DNA from: a virus
Taxonomy: Duplodnaviria > Caudoviricetes
Virus record (IMG/VR): IMGVR_UViG_3300025128_004839
Span: 1-35,236 of that record
Direction: 5' to 3' (one strand)
Length of the DNA stretch: 35,236 bases
The notes beneath the pieces were generated by a model that saw only the letters and a list, made by a program, of their open reading frames with translations, ran no database searches and was not told the origin of the DNA. A program made the position numbers and the translations under genes. Each line of letters opens with the position of its first letter. Position 1 is the first letter of the stretch. Positions 1,056 through 34,244 of the stretch are shown in pieces.

Positions 1056-1879
1056 TAAATTACTGCACTCTCTCTGACCGAAACTACCTCAAACAAGGGG
1101 TAGCTTTAATTAATTCATTACTTAGAGTTTCTTCTGAAAAGTTTACGCTCTATTACTTGTGTTTAGATGCAGAAACTTATTCTCATGTATCTCAGTATGA
1201 GTGCGTGGAGCCAATCCTTCTTCCTACAGTGGAAAGCTCTAGCCCAGAGATACTGGAGTATAAAAGTAGAAAACCTTACAACGAATACTGCTGGTCACTA
1301 GCCTCTACCTTTTCTAGGTACTTATTGGAGAAAAGAAATGTAGAGTCTGTGATGTATGTGGACGCAGACATTTACTTCTATCAAGATCCACTTATTATTT
1401 TTAAAGAGTTAGGAGATAGGAGCATCGGTATCATACGGCACCGACATAATACTAGCACTTCTCCTGATGGGGAATACAATGTTGGTATCATTTATTTTAA
1501 AAATGATAAACAGGGACTCAGTTGTTTGCAGTGGTGGAATGATTGCCTACTGAAAGACCTACGACCCGACTTGGCTACTTGTGGTGATCAAAAGTATTTG
1601 GAGGAGTTTCCTAAAATGTACGACACTGCTATCTTGGATGAAACTTTTGCTCATGGAGCCCCGTGGAATTATAGGCTTTATGTTTATGATAACTATCACA
1701 CAGACGGCACTGTAGTGTGGGGGGATAAGGTACAACCGCTGGTGTTTAATCACTTCTCTAGGTTTAGTTTAGATCATCCTACATCGGGCAACTACGCAGA
1801 CCATACTTTAAATTTCCAAGTGTTTGCTATTCCCGCTCTTAATCAAATGTATAGAGAGTATGCACAGGAAATAAGATGA
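1052..1879 (+). CDS. GT-A fold glycosyltransferase (GT8-like nucleotide-diphospho-sugar transferase)
   Basis: YVDADIYF DxD motif, YNVG, GDQKYL, HFS motifs, ATGA-coupled. Confidence 0.8.
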   Translation: MINYCTLSDRNYLKQGVALINSLLRVSSEKFTLYYLCLDAETYSHVSQYECVEPILLPTVESSSPEILEYKSRKPYNEYCWSLASTFSRYLLEKRNVESVMYVDADIYFYQDPLIIFKELGDRSIGIIRHRHNTSTSPDGEYNVGIIYFKNDKQGLSCLQWWNDCLLKDLRPDLATCGDQKYLEEFPKMYDTAILDETFAHGAPWNYRLYVYDNYHTDGTVVWGDKVQPLVFNHFSRFSLDHPTSGNYADHTLNFQVFAIPALNQMYREYAQEIR

Positions 1880-26166: not shown

Positions 26167-26814
26167 TTAGTGGGTGGTGAATCGAACCGTTTTCGGTGCC
26201 ATCCAACATAGCCCACACGATGCACAATTCGCGACCTTCTTTGTTTGCTCTGGACAATCAAAAGACTTTCCCTCGAAACTTTCTTCGGCTGCAAACCATT
26301 TTCCCAACTCCTGCGAATCATTGTTTCGGGAATAACGAACCACGAAGCGATCCGAAAAGCGAAGATTCAAAAGGTGAATAGCTCCACCGATAGGGGAATC
26401 TAATTCCCTTCCAGTATACCCAAAGATACAAAGCTCAGGGTATTCTAGCATCATTTTCTGCCAGAAGTTTACATAATCCAGAGAGTAGAAATCACCCAGA
26501 ACATGCAAGCGAATTACGATCCCTTGCTTGTGCTTTCGCATGAGATAATCAATCTCTAGATGCAATTGATCGGTAAGCCCCTCAGTAGAAAAGCGATGCG
26601 CGAATGGCATATTGTTGCCATAACAATCATTCCAATGGTGGCATGAGGTAGGGCAGGTTTCACGCTCTACTAGGGTAAGACTATAAAGCCTTTTCCCTTT
26701 CCACTTCTTAGCGGTGATTTTGAAACCTAATTTCTTATTACTCGAACCCTTTTTGAGGGTATCGAATTCGTGCGGGAGCTTGATGCTCTTCTGGTATCTT
26801 GTCGAGGTAATCAT
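26167..26814 (-). CDS. Gp88-like Cys-rich phage protein (radical-SAM-like motif)
   Basis: TCPTSCHHWNDCY, IRLHVLGDFYS, GYT, CP..CASCGLC, leaderless start. Confidence 0.7.
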   Translation of the reverse strand: MITSTRYQKSIKLPHEFDTLKKGSSNKKLGFKITAKKWKGKRLYSLTLVERETCPTSCHHWNDCYGNNMPFAHRFSTEGLTDQLHLEIDYLMRKHKQGIVIRLHVLGDFYSLDYVNFWQKMMLEYPELCIFGYTGRELDSPIGGAIHLLNLRFSDRFVVRYSRNNDSQELGKWFAAEESFEGKSFDCPEQTKKVANCASCGLCWMAPKTVRFTTH

Positions 26815-26884
26815 GCGCCTATTATATCATGCCCGTGGGGGGTTGTCAAGTGGTTGCACAAAAAACTTCCACTTTATTTTCGGT

Positions 26885-26945
26885 CGTAAGGTGTTGTCAA
26901 TAAAGGACTTATGGGCGCGGCCCCGGCCCCGAAAAAAAATTTCAA
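26885..26945. repeat. Palindromic element, copy 1
   Basis: TAAG-N17-CTTA starting 26887, then GC-rich CCCCGGCCC and an A-tract. Confidence 0.9.
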
Positions 26946-26964
26946 GCGAAAAGCAGAAAAAAGT

Positions 26965-27104
26965 TGCCTCCCTGTCGGACTTGACCCAGACTGCGGACTC
27001 TCGTCCCCGTTCGAACTCTCGCCCTCATCAAATAGGACTCTCGCTCAGTCGTAGTTTTTCCCACCTTTGCGGGTGTTCTGGAGTATGTCCCCGACAGGGA
27101 AGCA
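26965..27104 (-). ncRNA. Putative 140-nt structured RNA
   Basis: 14-bp closing helix TGCTTCCCTGTCGG/CCGACAGGGAGGCA, inner CCAGA/TCTGG, three CGAGAGT motifs, 3' T-tract. Confidence 0.65.
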
Positions 27105-27109
27105 TTGTA

Positions 27110-27190
27110 TGGTGGAGGTGGAGGGATTCGAACCCTCGTCCTAATAGTTCCCGTGTAGGGTCTTACTAGTCGAACAACCGAAACACCCCC
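27110..27190 (-). ncRNA. Mini-tmRNA: tRNA-like domain only (81 nt)
   Basis: GGGGGTG/CACCTCC-A-CCA acceptor with G3:U70, stemless D-loop ending TTCGA, capped helix 2, GAC linker, GAGGG-TTCGAAT-CCCTC T-arm. Confidence 0.8.
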
Positions 27191-27271
27191 GAAAGGAGAG
27201 CTTGCTTCCCGTGGTTAGCTCACCCACGCTTTCTTTATAGTGGGGAAGGGGCTACCTCCCCCACTCGGACC

Positions 27272-27496
27272 TTACAGCCCTTGGGTTGCCTTATGGGCAG
27301 CCGTAGCCCCCACATGGCGACCTTCGGACCACTCCCGAGGGAGCGCACGACGAAGGCTCTTGTAAGCCTCCAGCGCGTGGTCACATGCTTCCTGAGAAGC
27401 AGTGCCGTCCTTGTAGAGGTCAGCGAAAAGCTCACCGACCTGAATGCTAAGGCCCTGAATCTTGGCCTCAGTCTTGTTTGTGGCGAAATCGCCCAT
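27272..27496 (-). CDS. Hypothetical protein (74 aa), probably co-transcribed with the RNA genes
   Basis: AAGGAG Shine-Dalgarno before MGDFATNK, promoter at 27563-27591. Confidence 0.75.
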   Translation of the reverse strand: MGDFATNKTEAKIQGLSIQVGELFADLYKDGTASQEACDHALEAYKSLRRALPREWSEGRHVGATAAHKATQGL

Positions 27497-27608
27497 AGTA
27501 GTCTCCTTTGCAAAGAGGTTAGAAGTTGAGGGAGTTGAACCCGTCCCTCGTTCGGGTGTATCATTATACCATACTGAGGTCAGCTTGTCAAGCATGGTCT
27601 TCCAAATA

Positions 27609-27851
27609 TTATTCATAGGACTCATCCATTCCGAAGCCAGCAGAAGCGAGAGCGGACTCATCGTCCCAATCCTCACGCGGCTCATCGTCCACATCCCAAC
27701 CCTCATAGAAGGTGTTGAGGTACTTGATAGCTTCCGCGTCCACATCAGGAGCGGGGAGCCCGTTTTCGTGGAGGTAAGACAGAACGCCGTAGAGGTGGTG
27801 AGCAAACTTGCCATCGGACAGGTCCATGACGATATCGAAGGGGTTATTCAT
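27609..27851 (-). CDS. Acidic hypothetical protein
   Basis: Leaderless, C-terminal DDESALASAGFGMDESYE. Confidence 0.8.
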   Translation of the reverse strand: MNNPFDIVMDLSDGKFAHHLYGVLSYLHENGLPAPDVDAEAIKYLNTFYEGWDVDDEPREDWDDESALASAGFGMDESYE

Positions 27852-27896
27852 GCGTGTATTATACCAAAGGTTAGAGGGAATGTCAAGCGTTAGCTC

Positions 27897-27971
27897 TTAA
27901 TTTTTCGGAGGTTTTATTCCGAAGAGGGCTGCGTGACGCACCCAAAAGGAGTAGTTTTTGATTGCTTTCAT
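27897..27971 (-). CDS. Micro-protein (24 aa)
   Basis: TATAAT-N6-ATG, MKAIKNYSFWVRHAALFGIKPPKN. Confidence 0.55.
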   Translation of the reverse strand: MKAIKNYSFWVRHAALFGIKPPKN

Positions 27972-28030
27972 GCCCCTATTATACCACGGTTTTAGCCCAT
28001 TGCAAGAAATACTTTGAGAAAACTTTCTGT

Positions 28031-28093
28031 CGTAAGGTGCTGTGAACACAGGACTTAGGGCCTCGCGCCCCGGCCCCAAAAAATTTTTGCAAG
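28031..28093. repeat. Palindromic element, copy 2
   Basis: TAAG-N17-CTTA starting 28033 plus the GC and A tracts. Confidence 0.9.
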
Positions 28094-28241
28094 CACAAAA
28101 GAGAGAAAAGGTGGGGAGAGTGTTACTGCTTTCCAAGTGGCCGAAGCCAAGCGTTGAGCGGATCGAACACCCTCCCCTAAAAGGTGAGGAGGATCAGTAG
28201 GCTTCGCGTGTCACCTACTGCCTCCCCCCTTCCCAGTGGGC

Positions 28242-28430
28242 CTAGCCCTTGGGGATGTAAGCGTTCAAGCCTACCGTGACGGGCTTACCGTCAACCATCG
28301 CCGTCGTGGAGATGTTGCCACCGCTTGAAGCGACCAGCATCGTCTTACCAGACTTGGACGGGCGAAGAGACACAGGGGCCTCGATTACCAGCGTTGATAC
28401 GCCGTTCGTTTCCTTGATTGAAACATTCAT
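28242..28430 (-). CDS. Small conserved hypothetical protein
   Basis: GAGGT Shine-Dalgarno, PSKSGKTMLVASSGGN..GLNAY. Confidence 0.75.
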   Translation of the reverse strand: MNVSIKETNGVSTLVIEAPVSLRPSKSGKTMLVASSGGNISTTAMVDGKPVTVGLNAYIPKG

Positions 28431-28469
28431 AAAATTACCTCGTAGAGAGAGAAAGGGAAAAGGGGAAAA

Positions 28470-28784
28470 TTAAGCCGACCACTCATCGTGGAGGTCAGCG
28501 TTTACGCAGATATCGCGTTCGATACCCAAGCCAAGCGGGACTTGGATCGACTCAAGCTGCGAGAGGGAGACGTATCCCCACTCAGGCGAACCAAAGCCGA
28601 GATCACACAGGCCGAAGAGGAGCCAGTCCCCGTCTACCTGCTCGGAGCCTTCCACGATCTGCCAACTCTGGGCACCCATGGGGTTGAAGAATCGGACCAC
28701 GATCTTCTTCTCGTCGCAAGGGGTGTCCTCGGTGGAGTAGAGAGCGGGAAGGGCGTTCTTGATCTTTTCAGTGAGTAGTTGCAT
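28470..28784 (-). CDS. DUF2958 family protein
   Basis: LPALYS, VVRFFNP, LFGLCDLGFGSPEWGYVSLSQL, GLGIERD. Confidence 0.85.
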   Translation of the reverse strand: MQLLTEKIKNALPALYSTEDTPCDEKKIVVRFFNPMGAQSWQIVEGSEQVDGDWLLFGLCDLGFGSPEWGYVSLSQLESIQVPLGLGIERDICVNADLHDEWSA

Positions 28785-28815
28785 GTGAGTATTATACCAT
28801 GAAAGGAGGTAGATG

Positions 28816-29238
28816 TCAAGCCTTGAAGGCGCGAATTCCGTCAGGGACGGCAGAAAGGTTCTCGTCGCAATCGTCGAAGAAATAGGTTCGGTGAGTCTCC
28901 TTCAGCATAGACAGGATCTCAGCCTTGTATGCAGGGATCTCGAATCCACGATCACCAACGCAAAAGACATACTCTGCATCAATACCGTAACGCTCCAAGA
29001 GAGTGCGGATAGCGCGGTAGACGATGGAGTTCCTAGCCGTGAGGACATACACACGGTGGCCTTCTTGTTGCACAGTAATAGCGAACTGGACGAGGGACCG
29101 AGGCTTAGACTCCTTGAGGAGCTTATCGGTGTCTGCAAATTCGACATAGCGAGCGTGGCCCTTGGCTGACTCGATTTCTTGTGCAGTAGTCTCGAACAGG
29201 GTTCCGTCGAGATCAAATACGAAGGCTTTCTTTTTCAT
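28816..29238 (-). CDS. HAD-superfamily phosphatase
   Basis: FDLDGTL, LTAR, K, FFDD motifs, leaderless start MKKKAF. Confidence 0.85.
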   Translation of the reverse strand: MKKKAFVFDLDGTLFETTAQEIESAKGHARYVEFADTDKLLKESKPRSLVQFAITVQQEGHRVYVLTARNSIVYRAIRTLLERYGIDAEYVFCVGDRGFEIPAYKAEILSMLKETHRTYFFDDCDENLSAVPDGIRAFKA

Positions 29239-29269
29239 GCGTGTATTATACCAAAGACAGGGGAGGATG

Positions 29270-29392
29270 TCAAGAGATTTTGACGGTTTTTCCTCCGCTG
29301 TTGATCCACCAGTGATACCACTGGGCATTGGTCCAGTAGGCAGAGCAGACAGGGGGGACGGGGAAGATTGCGTTATCGGGGAGAGTGTTCAT
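29270..29392 (-). CDS. Small Trp-rich protein (40 aa, not in the ORF track)
   Basis: TATAAT-N6-ATG, MNTLPDNAIFPVPPVCSAYWTNAQWYHWWINSGGKTVKIS. Confidence 0.65.
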   Translation of the reverse strand: MNTLPDNAIFPVPPVCSAYWTNAQWYHWWINSGGKTVKIS

Positions 29393-29452
29393 GCATATAT
29401 TATACCACAGAATCCGAGAATGTCAAGCGTTAGCTTTAAAAAAACTGAGTGT

Positions 29453-29511
29453 CCTAAGTGCTTGTCAACACAGGACTTAGGGGGCTTCGCCCCGGCCCGA
29501 AATAAAAAAAA
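29453..29511. repeat. Palindromic element, copy 3
   Basis: CCTAAGT-N15-ACTTAGG, TAAG at 29455. Confidence 0.9.
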
Positions 29512-29545
29512 TGCCCCAAGTGCCTACACACAAAGCACTTGGGGC
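29500..29545 (-). terminator. Terminator
   Basis: GCCCCAAGTGC/GCACTTGGGGC 11-bp stem plus T-tract on the - strand. Confidence 0.75.
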
Positions 29546-29558
29546 GATCCGCTAATTT

Positions 29559-29876
29559 CTAGCGGAGAAAAGCCTTGACAGGGGCCGAAGAATCGACATC
29601 AATACCCATCGAAGAACACCACTCCTTATATTCTTCGGACATCCTGCCAAGGTCATATGTTGTATTGTACGTTTCTACTGTGCGACCAGCAGAGGCACGA
29701 ACGGGCGAGGTGGTGACTACCTCACCGTCACCAAACTGGGGATGATTGTATACCTTCCCCGTCAACCGCATTTCCCTAAGTTCGGGAGCTTGGTATGGAT
29801 TAGCTTCCCCGACAATAGCCCACTCTTCAATGCGCGGCGTAAGTTCGTAACAAGCGAAGTAGTCACCGTGATCCAT
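29559..29876 (-). CDS. Conserved phage hypothetical protein
   Basis: NPYQAPE..GKVYNHPQFGDG..TTS, TAATG-coupled start. Confidence 0.75.
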   Translation of the reverse strand: MDHGDYFACYELTPRIEEWAIVGEANPYQAPELREMRLTGKVYNHPQFGDGEVVTTSPVRASAGRTVETYNTTYDLGRMSEEYKEWCSSMGIDVDSSAPVKAFLR

Positions 29877-30187
29877 TAGGCTTCTGCCTCCTTCTTGGCG
29901 TTTTCCTTGCGCCAAGCGTCATTCTCAGCAGCCTTTACCTTTTGCTCCTCACGGGCAAGGACAAGAGCCTTATCGAGGACGTTCTTTAGCTCAACAATGC
30001 GAGCCTCGACATCAGGGCAGAAGAATGTCAACTCTTCCTCGGTCTGATAACCTTTGTCTGAGCCATCCCAAGAGTATTCAAGGATGCCAGCTTTCAGAGT
30101 GAACCATCCGTCCTTCTCTTCTGGGTTCCAAGCGTTCTTAGAGACTGAGGCTTCAAACTTGCCTACGTTGTGCATATCAACTTTCAT
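29876..30187 (-). CDS. Hypothetical protein
   Basis: ORF in the operon. Confidence 0.75.
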   Translation of the reverse strand: MKVDMHNVGKFEASVSKNAWNPEEKDGWFTLKAGILEYSWDGSDKGYQTEEELTFFCPDVEARIVELKNVLDKALVLAREEQKVKAAENDAWRKENAKKEAEA

Positions 30188-30189
30188 AA

Positions 30190-30435
30190 TTAGCCTTCCA
30201 TTTCGTTAGCGTAATCGGTGTAGAAATCATCGAACGCATCACGCTCGGTGTATTCTGGTTCTAGTTCTTCTGCAAGCTCACGCTCGCACTCTTCTTGCCA
30301 AAGCTCGGCAAGGAGTTCTTTGAGTTCATCATCTTCGACGATCTCCTCTTGATGGCCTTGGGCCTCAAGGAGTTCGGCTTCTTGATGGGCGAGGTACTCG
30401 TCGTGCTGGTCGGCACTTGTTTCGATGTCTTTCAT
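30190..30435 (-). CDS. Extremely acidic small protein (81 aa)
   Basis: Leaderless start MKDIETS, very E/D-rich. Confidence 0.75.
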   Translation of the reverse strand: MKDIETSADQHDEYLAHQEAELLEAQGHQEEIVEDDELKELLAELWQEECERELAEELEPEYTERDAFDDFYTDYANEMEG

Positions 30436-30478
30436 GGGTTCCATTATATCAGGTGTTTGGGTGAATGTCAAGGGGTTA

Positions 30479-30676
30479 CTAGCCAAAAATTTCATCTTGG
30501 CAGGACTGGCACATACCAGAGATCTGGTATTCCTTCTCGGAAACCTCATCCTTGAAGGACTTCGCAACACCATCACAGGTGGTGCATAACGCCTCAAGAA
30601 CCATTTGGGGACGGCTCTTGCCAGTGATGGAGGTGAGTAGGGACTCGATTTCGTGGTGTTTCTGAGTAGCTTTCAT
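30479..30676 (-). CDS. Small zinc-finger protein (65 aa)
   Basis: CTTC...EYQISGMCQSCQD, leaderless start MKATQK. Confidence 0.8.
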   Translation of the reverse strand: MKATQKHHEIESLLTSITGKSRPQMVLEALCTTCDGVAKSFKDEVSEKEYQISGMCQSCQDEIFG

Positions 30677-30875
30677 GTGTGTATTATACCAGATGTTTAG
30701 GGGTTTGTCAAGGGGAAGGGGAAGTTTTTTTTCAGTGTCCAGTGGGGTTTCGCCTTTCGGCGGTAGGACATCCCGTGTCTCACGGGCCATCTCTCGCGTG
30801 TGTCATGCCCCTATTATACCACATTTTTCGCCTTTGTCAAGTGTTGGGTCTTGGTTTTTTTCTTTTTCTTATCGT

Positions 30876-30937
30876 CGTAAGTACCTGTCAACAAAGGACT
30901 TAGGGGCTTGCGTCCGGCGCGAAAAAAAATTTGCAAG
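30876..30937. repeat. Palindromic element, copy 4
   Basis: TAAG-N17-CTTA starting 30878. Confidence 0.9.
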
Positions 30938-30940
30938 AAC

Positions 30941-30976
30941 AAAATAAAAAAAGCGTGACCCCTAGGGAGACCACGC
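30941..30976 (-). terminator. Terminator
   Basis: GCGTGG...TCACGC stem followed by T7-A-T4. Confidence 0.75.
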
Positions 30977-31032
30977 CAGTAATATACTGCCCTAGCAGGT
31001 TGTGGATATGACCCCCACAACAGGGCAAAAGA

Positions 31033-31255
31033 GGAAGGCAACGAACAGTGGGACTTACTTTATTACCCACACCCAGCGGCTAATTCTTAGGCATTAGCAG
31101 CGTATTTAACTGTAGTTCTTTTTCACTAGGCGACCCGCACAAAGGCTTCTCTGGCACTAGCCCGTCTTTCTACCCGTGTGCAGTTCGAGGCCCCTTCCAG
31201 TTACCGAAGGGATTACCTGATGCTCTGCCGAGGTTTCGAACCCTCGACACCTTCC
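31033..31255 (-). ncRNA. Putative 223-nt structured RNA
   Basis: Closing helix GGAAGGTG/TGCCTTCC around about six hairpins, no ORF of 60 aa or more on this strand. Confidence 0.6.
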
Positions 31256-31262
31256 AAATTTT

Positions 31263-31356
31263 CAATCCCCCCAAGGGTGAGGTCTAAGCAATCGCTCGCC
31301 TTCTTCCCTTGGGGACGCTCTGGGCCTACATGCTATTTATACTCGCCCAGTCGAGT
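31263..31356 (-). ncRNA. Pistol-like self-cleaving ribozyme
   Basis: ACTCG-ACTGGG-CGAGT (P1), ATAAATAG, GTAG, GCCCAG pseudoknot, AGCG, P3 TCCCCAAGGG/CCCTTGGGGG. P2 is imperfect. Confidence 0.6.
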
Positions 31357-31362
31357 CGGGAA

Positions 31363-31593
31363 CTACTTACCCATGTAGCGGTGGTTCACACCGTTACGGG
31401 TCACGAACTGCCGAGAGTTCATGTAGTGGCGGTTCCACGCCTTCTTGCAAGCGTTGAGCGAACCCGTGTAGGTGTTGCTCTGGCTTTGCAGGTCAAAGAT
31501 GGTATAGACCGCGCTGGACGCGCAACCGTTACCCACCCGAATCATAACAGCGTTCTGGTTCGAACGCACGACGTTGGTGATGCTAGAAAGCAT
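31363..31593 (-). CDS. Hypothetical protein
   Basis: AGGAG Shine-Dalgarno, promoter at 31642-31670. Confidence 0.7.
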   Translation of the reverse strand: MLSSITNVVRSNQNAVMIRVGNGCASSAVYTIFDLQSQSNTYTGSLNACKKAWNRHYMNSRQFVTRNGVNHRYMGK

Positions 31594-31666
31594 AGTTTAA
31601 ATCTCCTATAGGAAGAAAGGGGTTAGTGAATTGGAGAGGACATTATACCATGCCCTCTCCAGTTTG

Positions 31667-32038
31667 TCAAGCCTCTACCGACAATTCGTCAGAGGATTCC
31701 ACGAGGCCGTTGATGACCTGAGCCATCTGCACCTCGATCTCAGTCTTCCGCAGTTCAGCGGTTGACAGCGTAGCCTCAGCGTCAAGGCGTTCGGCTTCGA
31801 TCTTCTCGATCCAAGCGTCATGCTTTGCCACACGGGCGTTGAAGGACTGGGGACCGTCCCCTAGACCTTTCTTTGCTTCACGGATATCCTTCCGCAGAGC
31901 ATCAAGCTCCTCAACAAGAGGGGCTACGGCAGGGTTGCTCATGGCATCCTGCTTCGCTTGCTTCACCTTGAGGCGAGAGAGCTTTGCCTCTGTCTCAGCG
32001 ATGATTTCAGCGGGTGTGCGTTGCTTACGCTCACTCAT
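31667..32038 (-). CDS. Coiled-coil hypothetical protein
   Basis: AGGAG Shine-Dalgarno, promoter at 32100-32128. Confidence 0.8.
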   Translation of the reverse strand: MSERKQRTPAEIIAETEAKLSRLKVKQAKQDAMSNPAVAPLVEELDALRKDIREAKKGLGDGPQSFNARVAKHDAWIEKIEAERLDAEATLSTAELRKTEIEVQMAQVINGLVESSDELSVEA

Positions 32039-32124
32039 GGTTAGTATCTCCTAAAAGATGGAAAAGGTAGTGAGGGACTGTCCCTCGTAATGTCCTCCCA
32101 TTATACCATGGAAGGGGGAGTTTG

Positions 32125-32244
32125 TCAAGCCTTCTTTGTCAGAAGATCTTGGAAATCGCCACAACCTTGGGCGAAGTCCTCTGCGGCTTGCAGAGAGGTG
32201 AAAGTGACAGGAGCAGAGTGGTAACGAACTACGATGAACTTCAT
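32125..32244 (-). CDS. Small protein (39 aa, not in the ORF track)
   Basis: TATAAT-N6-ATG, MKFIVVRYHSAPVTFTSLQAAEDFAQGCGDFQDLLTKKA. Confidence 0.65.
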   Translation of the reverse strand: MKFIVVRYHSAPVTFTSLQAAEDFAQGCGDFQDLLTKKA

Positions 32245-32283
32245 GGGTGTATTATACCAAAAAGGTAGGGGGATGTCAAGGGG

Positions 32284-32418
32284 TTAGTCTGCAAAATCGA
32301 GAGCAATTTCAGCAGCGCAGGACTTGCAGATGATGGATGCGCCCCAGTCATCGCTCACCTCATTGGTTGCGGTGACCTGACCACAGGCATCACACAGTAG
32401 CATCTCTTCCTTGTTCAT
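32284..32418 (-). CDS. Zinc-ribbon micro-protein (44 aa, not in the ORF track)
   Basis: TATAAT-N6-ATG, CDAC...CKSC. Confidence 0.7.
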   Translation of the reverse strand: MNKEEMLLCDACGQVTATNEVSDDWGASIICKSCAAEIALDFAD

Positions 32419-32478
32419 GGGTGTATTATATCACAAAAAAAGTAGGCTGTCAAGGGGGTGGAGTGATTTATTTTCTGA

Positions 32479-32542
32479 CGTAAGTGCTTGTCAACACAGG
32501 ACTTAGGGCATTTCGCCCCGGCCCTTCCCAAAATTTTTCAAG
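32479..32542. repeat. Palindromic element, copy 5
   Basis: TAAG-N17-CTTA starting 32481. Confidence 0.9.
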
Positions 32543-32544
32543 CC

Positions 32545-32703
32545 CTAATCTTCTAAATCCATAATAGTCTGCATGAATTTCCAGATGGTAGGGTAGAGCT
32601 TTTTGAACTCATCCGCAGCTTGATCATTCATCCATGCAACGCCATGCTCCCAGTCAGTCTGGATAGCGTCAGACAGTAGCTCTTGAATCTCTTCAATGCT
32701 CAT
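32545..32703 (-). CDS. Small acidic protein (52 aa, not in the ORF track)
   Basis: ATGA-coupled, MSIEEIQELLSDAIQTDWEHGVAWMND... Confidence 0.65.
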   Translation of the reverse strand: MSIEEIQELLSDAIQTDWEHGVAWMNDQAADEFKKLYPTIWKFMQTIMDLED

Positions 32704-32906
32704 CGGTGAAGACGCTTCATCATTTCCTTAGACTTGGCTTCGAAAGCCTCTTGCCATTCTCCACCCATGGAGATAGCGAAGTTCTTAAGGGTTTGGATCT
32801 GGTCACGACCAGCGTTGTAGGAGCGACTGTCATCGCTCATCATGTAGAACCAATCGGCATAACCGAGTTGGGTGGTGAATTCTTCAAATGTCATTTTTTC
32901 TTTCAT
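32700..32906 (-). CDS. Hypothetical protein
   Basis: Leaderless, DWFYMMSDD.RSYNAG motif. Confidence 0.8.
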   Translation of the reverse strand: MKEKMTFEEFTTQLGYADWFYMMSDDSRSYNAGRDQIQTLKNFAISMGGEWQEAFEAKSKEMMKRLHR

Positions 32907-32943
32907 GTGTATATTATACCAAGTGTTTAGGGGGTTGTCAAGC

Positions 32944-33276
32944 CTAGTCGCAGTAAAATTTCAAATCTTTGTGATCGAAATCATCACGGCCCATCTTCTG
33001 GATCAAAGCCTCCACGACATCGGGGGACTGCCAGCCAGCCACCTGATCCATAGACGTAAGCGGGAGGAAGTTATCATCCTCATCCAACACCGCAACCTCG
33101 TAGGTCGTGGGGAAGTGGTGCGATCCCTCAGGACCAAATCGCTCACCGACCATCCAAGAGGCGTAGTGACCAGCACCAAAGCCGACCGACAGCTTGTAGC
33201 CGTGGTGGGAAAAGGTGAACTGCTTCAGACCAGCGCGAGGGGAGGTGACAGTGATGGTGTTCTCTTTCGTCTTCAT
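32944..33276 (-). CDS. Hypothetical protein
   Basis: Leaderless, GYKLSV..GHY..YEVAV..DQVAGWQS. Confidence 0.8.
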   Translation of the reverse strand: MKTKENTITVTSPRAGLKQFTFSHHGYKLSVGFGAGHYASWMVGERFGPEGSHHFPTTYEVAVLDEDDNFLPLTSMDQVAGWQSPDVVEALIQKMGRDDFDHKDLKFYCD

Positions 33277-33318
33277 GTGTATATTATACCAGAGTTTTGG
33301 GAAATGTCAAGTGCTTTC

Positions 33319-33453
33319 TTAGAAAAAATCAGGAACGCACTGAAGGTAACTGCCAAGGCGAGCAAACAGGATGCCAGCCTCACGGACTACCGCGCCCACA
33401 AAATCGTTGAAGAGGAGGACGAGTGCTATGATTGTGATGTTCTTTGCTTTCAT
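33319..33453 (-). CDS. Small hydrophobic protein (44 aa, not in the ORF track)
   Basis: TATAAT-N6-ATG, MKAKNITIIALVLLFNDFVG... Confidence 0.65.
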   Translation of the reverse strand: MKAKNITIIALVLLFNDFVGAVVREAGILFARLGSYLQCVPDFF

Positions 33454-33624
33454 GTGTGTATTATACCAGAGTTTTGGAGAATGTCAAGGGGAAAAAGCTT
33501 TTTCTGATACGACATTGTTCCGCGTCAGGCAGAGGCTTTGTTCCCCTCGTCTTGTGCGTCTATTATACCACAATCTCAGCCAATGTCAAGCCTTGGGCCT
33601 GTGTTTTTTTGAGTTTTTTTGTGA

Positions 33625-33675
33625 CGTAAGCCCCTGTCAATAAAGGACTTAAGGGCTTCGCCCCGGCCCTTTTTC
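33625..33675. repeat. Palindromic element, copy 6
   Basis: TAAG-N17-CTTA starting 33627. Confidence 0.9.
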
Positions 33676-33764
33676 AAAAAATCCACATAAAAATGCAGAG
33701 AATCCAAATACAGAGAAAATAAATCACCACGCAGGACATGACCCCACGGAAGAAATCAAGTCCA

Positions 33765-34244
33765 TCATCGGGAGTGTTTCGCATATAGCTTCCTCACATT
33801 TTTAATCCAGTGCTGATTCAGTCCCGTAGGATCGTTATCCGCTCCAACGGGGCAGTAACGCTTGCCAAGGAATACCACAAACTCACCCTTAGAACCAGCC
33901 TTGACCCAACGGTCGTAGTTCTTCTGGACAGTGCAAGCACACTCGCCAGCCTGACGGCGATAGCCTCGATCCTTCGCATACTTGCTCAGGCATCCATACT
34001 CACGGCCAGCACGACCATTCTCAGCGTAACGAATAGCTGAGACGTAAGGTGCAAGCTTTGCACGAAGCTCAGGGCGAATGTTCACCTTGATAGCGTCATC
34101 AAAGAGAGCAGCCTTAGCCGTACCGTCTTTCTTGACGATGACATCCCGATAGGTTTGGGCACTAGCAACGCCACCAATGGCGACGATTGCGATGGTAAGC
34201 CAGAGGGCATAGCCCAACAGTGTAGTAGCGATGATTTTGATCAT
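33765..34244 (-). CDS. Exported lysozyme-fold/glucosaminidase-like protein
   Basis: Hydrophobic N-terminus, AIRYAENG (putative catalytic Glu), YCPVGADNDPTGLNQHWIKNV, ATGA-coupled start. Confidence 0.6.
   Translation of the reverse strand: MIKIIATTLLGYALWLTIAIVAIGGVASAQTYRDVIVKKDGTAKAALFDDAIKVNIRPELRAKLAPYVSAIRYAENGRAGREYGCLSKYAKDRGYRRQAGECACTVQKNYDRWVKAGSKGEFVVFLGKRYCPVGADNDPTGLNQHWIKNVRKLYAKHSR

What the first reader, a model, noticed from the sequence alone, without database searches (positions are those of the whole stretch)
26965..27104. 140-nt multi-hairpin RNA starting 5 nt after the mini-tmRNA CCA
Seen: a 14-bp terminal helix with one G:U pair on the - strand, then GAC/GTC and CCAGA/TCTGG helices. 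These enclose CACC..GGTG and three CGAGAGT repeats, at least two of which fold as C-GAGA-G GNRA tetraloops (GGAC GAGA GTCC, GGGC GAGA GTTC). A T-tract follows. Inference: it is co-transcribed with the mini-tmRNA and released by tRNA-type processing. It could be a partner RNA or a multivalent protein decoy. It lacks the SRP and RNase P hallmarks I know.
Basis: partly seen in the sequence, partly recalled or inferred. Interest (0 to 1): 0.7.

Follow-up and report, generated by a model that had tools for sequence, protein, structure and literature searches.

The report
New phage RNA family beside mini-tmRNA
Next to a cut-down copy of the bacterial ribosome-rescue RNA (tmRNA), this marine phage carries a 138-base folded sequence of an uncatalogued family whose stems are kept by compensating changes in related phages; it is likely cut free from an early transcript and likely works as a decoy for a host RNA-binding protein that is still unidentified.

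Summary
It folds far better than shuffles (z -5.0) and matches no Rfam family. I found 7 diverged homologues in IMG/VR phages of the same myovirus lineage, plus part of one in an RNA-seq contig. Across 8 aligned sequences, 17 of 20 pairs show double-sided changes. Conserved: a 10-13-bp closing stem, a near-invariant internal loop (GGGGACAUACUCC / GGGUCAAGUCC), a 5-bp stem, a GNRA-capped hairpin and an A-rich linker. The CGAGAGU repeats lie in the variable arm and are not conserved; two of them are predicted to pair with each other. The TLD-only tmRNA is a known form. The RNA adjoins it in 6 of 9 lineages, on either side, but is absent from 119 other TLD loci and 2 complete relatives, so it is an accessory module, not an obligate partner. 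Best reading: a decoy or mimic RNA released by tRNA-type processing; the ligand is unknown. This scan reported swappable RNAs beside mini-tmRNAs on other DNA before, but not this family.

The parts
26966..27103 (-). The RNA (138 nt), boundaries set by homologues
27091..27103 (-). 5' arm of closing stem P1 (sequence free, length 10-13 bp)
   Evidence: 11 of 11 counted pairs change on both sides
26966..26978 (-). 3' arm of closing stem P1
27080..27092 (-). 5' half of the conserved core, GGGGACAUACUCC (one A>G variant in L160)
26977..26987 (-). 3' half of the conserved core, GGGUCAAGUCC
   Evidence: partly fixed by the search pattern
27077..27081 (-). 5' arm of 5-bp stem P2 (pairs with 26990-26986)
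   Evidence: 100% of cells paired, 3 of 5 pairs covary
27062..27075 (-). Hairpin P3 with a GNRA tetraloop
   Evidence: loops GCAA, GUAA, GCGA, GAGA
27052..27061 (-). A-rich linker ending in CUA
26991..27051 (-). Variable arm: stem with a predicted 4x4 GAGA/GAGA loop, and a C-GAGA-G hairpin; not conserved
26957..26962 (-). U tract after the closing stem (possible transcript end or processing spacer)
   Evidence: U-rich spacers also follow homologues that run on into a TLD
27110..27190 (-). TLD-only (tag-less) tmRNA ending in CCA
   Evidence: Rfam RF00023, 63.2 bits
27191..27270 (-). Hairpin and a second small variable module upstream of the TLD
27272..27496 (-). 74-aa gene that marks this slot in relatives; no PHROG or Pfam family
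27563..27591 (-). Perfect sigma-70-type promoter-like site, the likely start of the precursor

Best explanation
This is a member of an uncatalogued family of 85-143-nt structured phage RNAs that is likely transcribed early from a host-type promoter, likely cut free by the host's tRNA/tmRNA-processing nucleases acting on the neighbouring mini-tmRNA, and likely acts by binding and titrating a host RNA-binding protein through its near-invariant internal loop. Shown: fold, covariation, conserved core, variable arm, patchy distribution and modular placement. Inferred: transcription as a precursor; release of the 5' end by the cut that matures the TLD 3' end (here), or of the 3' end by the RNase P cut at the TLD 5' end (four relatives); docking of the GNRA hairpin on the CC:GG base of P2 or on the internal loop; the decoy role. 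The target protein is not identified.
For: Covariation in three helices: 93.7% of cells paired, 17 of 20 pairs with double changes, against 34-51% paired in slid controls. Stem sequence is free while about 22 loop and junction bases are fixed, as expected of a recognition surface. Two homologues were found without the motif pattern, by a model over syntenic loci. Of 16 pattern hits, 7 have flanking stems of 8-12 bp and 9 have 0-2 bp. All 8 members tested fold with z -2.6 to -7.1. In L218 and L219 the RNA starts directly behind a promoter-like site, so it need not be part of a tmRNA precursor. It sits among early promoter cassettes with Pistol ribozymes, TLDs and other folded modules. It is absent from two complete, closer relatives (RecA 76-85%) and present in more distant ones (61-63%), a pattern typical of accessory host-interaction genes (inference). 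A TLD-like molecule inhibits tmRNA, perhaps by titrating SmpB (PMC4131195, passage citing Mao et al. 2009), so a decoy is a precedent in this very array.
Against: No ligand, host or transcript ends were shown. Expression rests on one RNA-library contig of depth 2.1 that could be DNA; it did not lay again on the element alone. The family is small: about 9 lineages, several related, so the covariation counts overstate independent events. Invariance of 19 core bases is partly built into the search pattern. Invariant loop bases fit a catalytic or tertiary-contact role as well as protein binding. No phage protein tracks the RNA, but most carrier records are fragments.
Confidence: 0.45

Rival explanations
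1. The conserved base is a stable scaffold (its invariant loop being the docking site for its own GNRA hairpin), and the exchangeable arm is the functional cargo.
For: The arm between linker and P2 varies from about 20 to 75 nt with unrelated sequence. P2 and P3 lengths are fixed and the GNRA loop is kept in all full-length members. The loop resembles an 11-nt tetraloop receptor (recalled, not tested).
Against: The shortest members (L218, L219, L221) carry only a small hairpin as cargo. No loop-receptor covariation is seen: GCGA and GAGA loops occur with the same CC:GG.
Confidence: 0.15
2. A new small ribozyme or ligand-binding RNA, with the invariant internal loop as the active site.
For: Invariant unpaired bases plus a docking-type junction; the lineage uses Pistol ribozymes in the same arrays.
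Against: No match to any Rfam ribozyme or riboswitch at E<=10 or E<=1 in 7 homologue loci. A cut inside the basal stem would release nothing obvious. In the window and L216 a U tract and a new promoter cassette follow, not a regulated gene.
Confidence: 0.12
3. A rearranged mimic of initiator tRNA: the 5' half-motif presents a CAU anticodon-like loop and the 3' half-motif a T-loop, to decoy tRNA-targeting host defences.
For: In E. coli tRNA-fMet the best matches of the two half-motifs fall on the anticodon arm (9 of 13, 90 of 1000 shuffles) and the T arm (9 of 11, 14 of 1000), in the right order. 5 of 61 T arms in session loci differ from the 3' half by one base.
Against: Post hoc, 14 comparisons; 4.5S RNA (9 of 11) and 16S rRNA (10 of 11) match the 3' half as well. 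The cloverleaf state costs 3.9-9.4 kcal/mol in 8 of 8 members. U33 and U54 equivalents are not kept, and no CCA follows.
Confidence: 0.08
4. A trans-acting partner of the mini-tmRNA (a split tmRNA whose message piece is this RNA).
For: Adjacent to a TLD in 6 of 9 lineages. A weak Rfam tmRNA_permuted match spans the junction (20.9 bits, cut-off 47). A 19-nt stretch resembles the TLD 3' part (14 of 2000 shuffles).
Against: Cofold gain 0 and duplex energies like shuffles in 5 of 5 pairs. No conserved frame or stop. Order and distance vary, up to about 3.5 kb. 0 of 119 other TLD loci and 0 of 2 complete TLD-bearing relatives carry it. The TLD-like stretch lies in the unconserved arm.
Confidence: 0.07
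5. Only a terminator or transcript-stabilising structure.
For: Closing stem followed by U-rich sequence in most members.
Against: Invariant internal sequence is not needed for that. In four loci a TLD follows within about 5-12 nt, and in two the RNA is first behind the promoter-like site.
Confidence: 0.07

Closest known systems
TLD-only (CDS-less) tmRNA of Mycobacterium phage DS6A (PMC4131195, PMC11915505; passages read)
   Same: This is the neighbour, not the element: about 130 such TLDs match one pattern in IMG/VR.
   Different: The passages seen describe no flanking RNA; the element has no acceptor end or alanine identity elements.
Bacterial and phage Y RNAs (YrlA; PMC4201824, passages read)
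   Same: 80-130 nt, long stem formed by both ends, internal loop, protein-tethering role, also found in phages.
   Different: No GNCGAAN(0-1)G motif near the 5' end, no D/T/acceptor module, no TROVE gene in 10 records or in 51 window proteins.
Bacterial SRP (4.5S) RNA helix 8
   Same: The 3' half-motif matches E. coli 4.5S positions 42-52 at 9 of 11 bases.
   Different: The partner strand matches at 6 of 13 at best; no capping tetraloop; no Rfam SRP hit.
Candidate structured RNAs of phages (Fremin et al., PMC10690425; passages read, 3 of 6 held supplements searched)
   Same: Same class: covariation-supported phage RNAs of unknown function from IMG/VR, 29-151 nt.
   Different: No motif or contig match in the searched files, but the alignment and position files were not among what could be read, so identity with one of the 8495 candidates is not excluded.

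Membership tests
Any Rfam 15 family | Score at or above the family's gathering cut-off | tested here: not met
   window; 7 homologue loci
Two-piece (permuted) tmRNA coding piece | Pairs with the acceptor piece | tested here: not met
   5 of 5 pairs
Two-piece (permuted) tmRNA coding piece | Conserved tag reading frame with stop | tested here: not met
   three frames after the linker in 8 members
Y RNA / YrlA | 5' GNCGAAN(0-1)G Ro60-binding motif and D/T arms | tested here: not met
   alignment against the definition in PMC4201824
Y RNA / YrlA | Ro60 (TROVE) gene within 4 kb | tested here: not met
   several carrier records are fragments
SRP RNA | Tetraloop-capped helix 8 with both conserved strands | tested here: not met
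6S RNA | About 180-nt rod with a central bubble | tested here: not met
   85-143 nt, branched; no match of model R2 to E. coli ssrS
Group I intron core | P7 (GACUG/CAGUC) and P3 pseudoknot | tested here: not met
   P7-like pairing costs 6.5 kcal/mol and is not conserved; the resemblance was recalled
Hammerhead ribozyme | CUGANGA and GAAA core around three stems | tested here: not met
   The look-alike lies in the variable arm only; no Rfam hit
Retron msr-msd | Terminal inverted repeats with an adjacent reverse transcriptase gene | tested here: not met
   No RVT_1 in 5 carrier records or in 51 window proteins
Initiator-tRNA mimic | Folded anticodon arm and T arm | tested here: inconclusive
   Sequence likeness borderline; fold disfavoured
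Protein-decoy RNA | Specific binding and titration of a host protein | not testable with these tools
   Needs a pull-down; the host is unknown
RNA released by tRNA-type processing | Mature ends at the TLD junction | not testable with these tools
   Only contigs were available

The most novel reading that the evidence does not exclude
The RNA is a new kind of phage mimic that carries the anticodon-arm and T-arm signatures of initiator tRNA on a swappable frame, opens into a cloverleaf on binding, and soaks up host defence toxins aimed at initiator tRNA, while the mini-tmRNA beside it serves as the processing signal that releases it.
Probability: 0.08. Interest if true: 0.85.

Novelty: new variant of a known kind. 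Interest (0 to 1): 0.52.

Why it matters
It turns an orphan hairpin into a defined RNA family with a small fixed core (about 22 bases on an 85-nt minimal frame) that can be made and probed directly. It also supports the view that these aquatic myoviruses run modular early RNA arrays in which TLDs and ribozymes serve as punctuation for exchangeable RNA genes. If the core titrates a host protein, it would point to an RNA-based host-takeover or counter-defence route. Without a host or ligand it stays a well-supported motif of unknown target.

Tried and rejected
Patterns built on the GAGA repeats: 0 hits and 26 hits that were all tandem repeats. Patterns on the 5' motif plus linker: 0 viral hits; 33 metagenome hits, of which 4 were identical or near-identical copies and the rest chance; 6 viral hits, all chance. 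blastn against cultured phages: no homologue for three queries. Whole-record search with the two-sequence model missed even true homologues (0 of 27), so only model R2 results are used. R2 over 151 genomes of the phylum of G053: none, with no positive control; over E. coli rRNA operon, ffs, ssrS and metZWV: nothing better than E 2.5. A weak R2 hit in L210 (E 1.8) lies at the end of a coding gene and was dropped. The second read-laying gave no new homologue; zero cover in X20, X21 and X22 proves nothing. Group I, hammerhead, SRP, 6S, Y RNA, retron and split-tmRNA readings were rejected as in the membership table. L216 (no GNRA hairpin, degenerate P2, 33.5 bits) was left out of the covariation alignment, and X20 could not be aligned since only 30 letters were shown. 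A related genome in a Prochlorococcus single-cell assembly is not taken as host evidence; no photosynthesis genes appeared among 69 of its proteins.

Full report
Observation. The minus strand reads TLD-only tmRNA (27190-27110; Rfam RF00023, 63 bits), a 5-nt spacer, the 140-nt element and a U6 tract. The element folds at -62.7 kcal/mol, z -5.03. The terminal helix and CCAGA/UCUGG are well defined. The GAGA reading is mostly wrong: the first two CGAGAG copies are predicted to pair with each other across a 4x4 loop (p 0.99), and forcing tetraloops costs 4.7 and 7.4 kcal/mol. Only the third is a tetraloop. No Rfam family covers the element apart from a weak tmRNA_permuted overlap (20.9 bits against a cut-off of 47).

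Setting. The window is part of a phage genome with tRNAs, sugar-modifying genes, RecA, GroES, a ClpB-like ATPase and many sigma-70 promoter cassettes. A complete relative of 130 kb has tail sheath, major head, portal and DNA polymerase genes. The DNA occurs mainly in marine and aquatic metagenomes. The host is unknown. A perfect promoter-like site at 27591-27563 precedes a 74-aa gene, a small module, the TLD and the element, with no promoter between them and the next at 26849. The TLD is a known form (phage DS6A; PMC4131195 and PMC11915505, passages read), and about 130 match one pattern in IMG/VR.

Homologues. The slot after the TLD is not conserved: of 16 loci with the 74-aa gene, 13 show a TLD with readable downstream DNA and none has the element there; two carry other folded RNAs. 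A model built from the window and one close strain found homologues elsewhere in two of these records (L198, L199). They share the base of the RNA, not its interior. A two-motif pattern then gave 16 IMG/VR hits, of which 7 have flanking stems of 8-12 bp and 9 have 0-2 bp; two of the 7 are the records already found. An RNA-library contig (X20, 251 nt, depth 2.1) covers a TLD and runs on into a further diverged homologue. Three other metagenome hits are identical to the window and are not independent.

Structure of the family. In 8 aligned sequences (L216 and X20 left out) 93.7% of cells pair, 17 of 20 pairs change on both sides, and slid controls fall to 34-51%. Relatedness inflates these counts: two pairs of rows are near-identical in the core. 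The family has a closing stem of 10-13 bp with free sequence, a near-invariant internal loop, a 5-bp stem, a 3-5-bp hairpin with a GNRA loop, an A-rich linker ending in CUA, and a variable arm; total length 85-143 nt, z -2.6 to -7.1. The register inside the core is unresolved: three alternatives lie within about 2.5 kcal/mol. Nineteen core bases were demanded by the pattern, but the two model-found members and X20 show the same motif, and positions outside the pattern are also fixed. The reverse strand scores 17.5 bits against 91, and promoters, TLD and GNRA loops all point to the minus strand.

Distribution. All carriers show the lineage's promoter cassettes, and six of seven share proteins with the window in the stretches compared. 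The RNA follows a TLD in the window and X20, precedes one by about 5-12 nt in L213, L219, L222 and L225, precedes a different tRNA-like element in L218, and has no TLD nearby in L216 and L221. It starts right behind a promoter-like site in L218 and L219. Model R2 finds it in 0 of 119 other TLD loci (600 nt each side) and in 7 of 50 whole records, these being the 7 known carriers, and 0 of 8 near-complete ones. Two complete, closer relatives have a TLD but lack it. It is an accessory, mobile module.

Mechanism. Shown: fold, conserved core, modularity. Inferred: early transcription by host polymerase, release by the nucleases that mature tRNA and tmRNA ends (established knowledge, recalled), a compact fold with GNRA docking, and action by binding a host protein at the core (0.45). 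The neighbouring TLD type is itself thought to titrate SmpB (PMC4131195, citing Mao et al. 2009, which I did not read). A partner role was tested and failed: no predicted pairing, no conserved frame, no fixed linkage. Rivals are a scaffold for variable cargo (0.15), a new ribozyme or aptamer (0.12), an initiator-tRNA mimic (0.08), a split tmRNA (0.07) and a mere terminator (0.07). The half-motifs resemble the tRNA-fMet anticodon and T arms, SRP helix 8 and a 16S rRNA loop, each at borderline level among 14 comparisons; the cloverleaf state costs 3.9-9.4 kcal/mol.

Known or new. Y RNA (PMC4201824, passages read), SRP, 6S, group I, hammerhead, retron and two-piece tmRNA each fail a defining feature. 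Eight paper searches (listings and abstract starts only, apart from the four papers cited) showed no description of this RNA. The alignments of the Fremin phage RNA catalogue (PMC10690425) could not be read, so an unnamed entry there is possible. Earlier notes of this scan describe swappable RNAs beside mini-tmRNAs on other DNA; look-ups with three members of this family found nothing.

Verdict. A real, covariation-supported, apparently uncatalogued phage RNA family with a small fixed core and unknown target. New variant of a known kind; interest 0.52.

Noticed in passing
window 31011-31275 (-); L006/L208:10364-10625; L148, L155: A roughly 260-nt structured RNA downstream of the Pistol ribozyme has homologues (E 7e-19, 3e-14); in L006 it sits right after the TLD CCA. 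No Rfam match at gathering level. A shorter RNA after the TLD in L198 and L219 shares its 3' motif.
   Followed up: partly
window 31302-31356 (-) and about 31240-31300: Pistol ribozyme (43 bits) followed by a CCCCAAGGG..CCCUUGGGG stem module; Pistol also in L216 and L253.
   Followed up: no
window 27191-27270 (-): Hairpin plus AAAGAAAGCG module before the TLD, also in L006, L056, L196 and, away from a TLD, in L152; no conserved reading frame. Close strains carry 67 other letters here.
   Followed up: partly
L218, about 1590-1700 (+): A tRNA-like element with a long acceptor stem, T arm, CCA end and a large unusual interior follows the homologue; not called by ARAGORN or Rfam.
   Followed up: no
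L213, L222, L225, just upstream of the homologue: Another module closed by CCGAGAGG..CUCUCGG with a swapped interior starts at the promoter.
   Followed up: no
L216:1489-1620 (+): Divergent member with an internal second copy of parts of both half-motifs and tandem repeats upstream.
   Followed up: partly
window 28020-28260 (-): A further gene-free, G+C-rich folded-looking interval between a gene end and a promoter cassette.
   Followed up: no
window 26800-34000 (-): Repeated cassette GGGCCGGGGCG..CCCTAAGTCC..CACTTACG before many perfect sigma-70 promoter-like sites; shared by the lineage.
   Followed up: no
L001-L119: About 130 TLD-only tmRNAs in IMG/VR from very different phages, far more than the single phage case named in the tmRNA database passages read.
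   Followed up: partly
L212: A complete 130.6-kb relative lies in a Prochlorococcus single-cell assembly; host link not established.
   Followed up: partly
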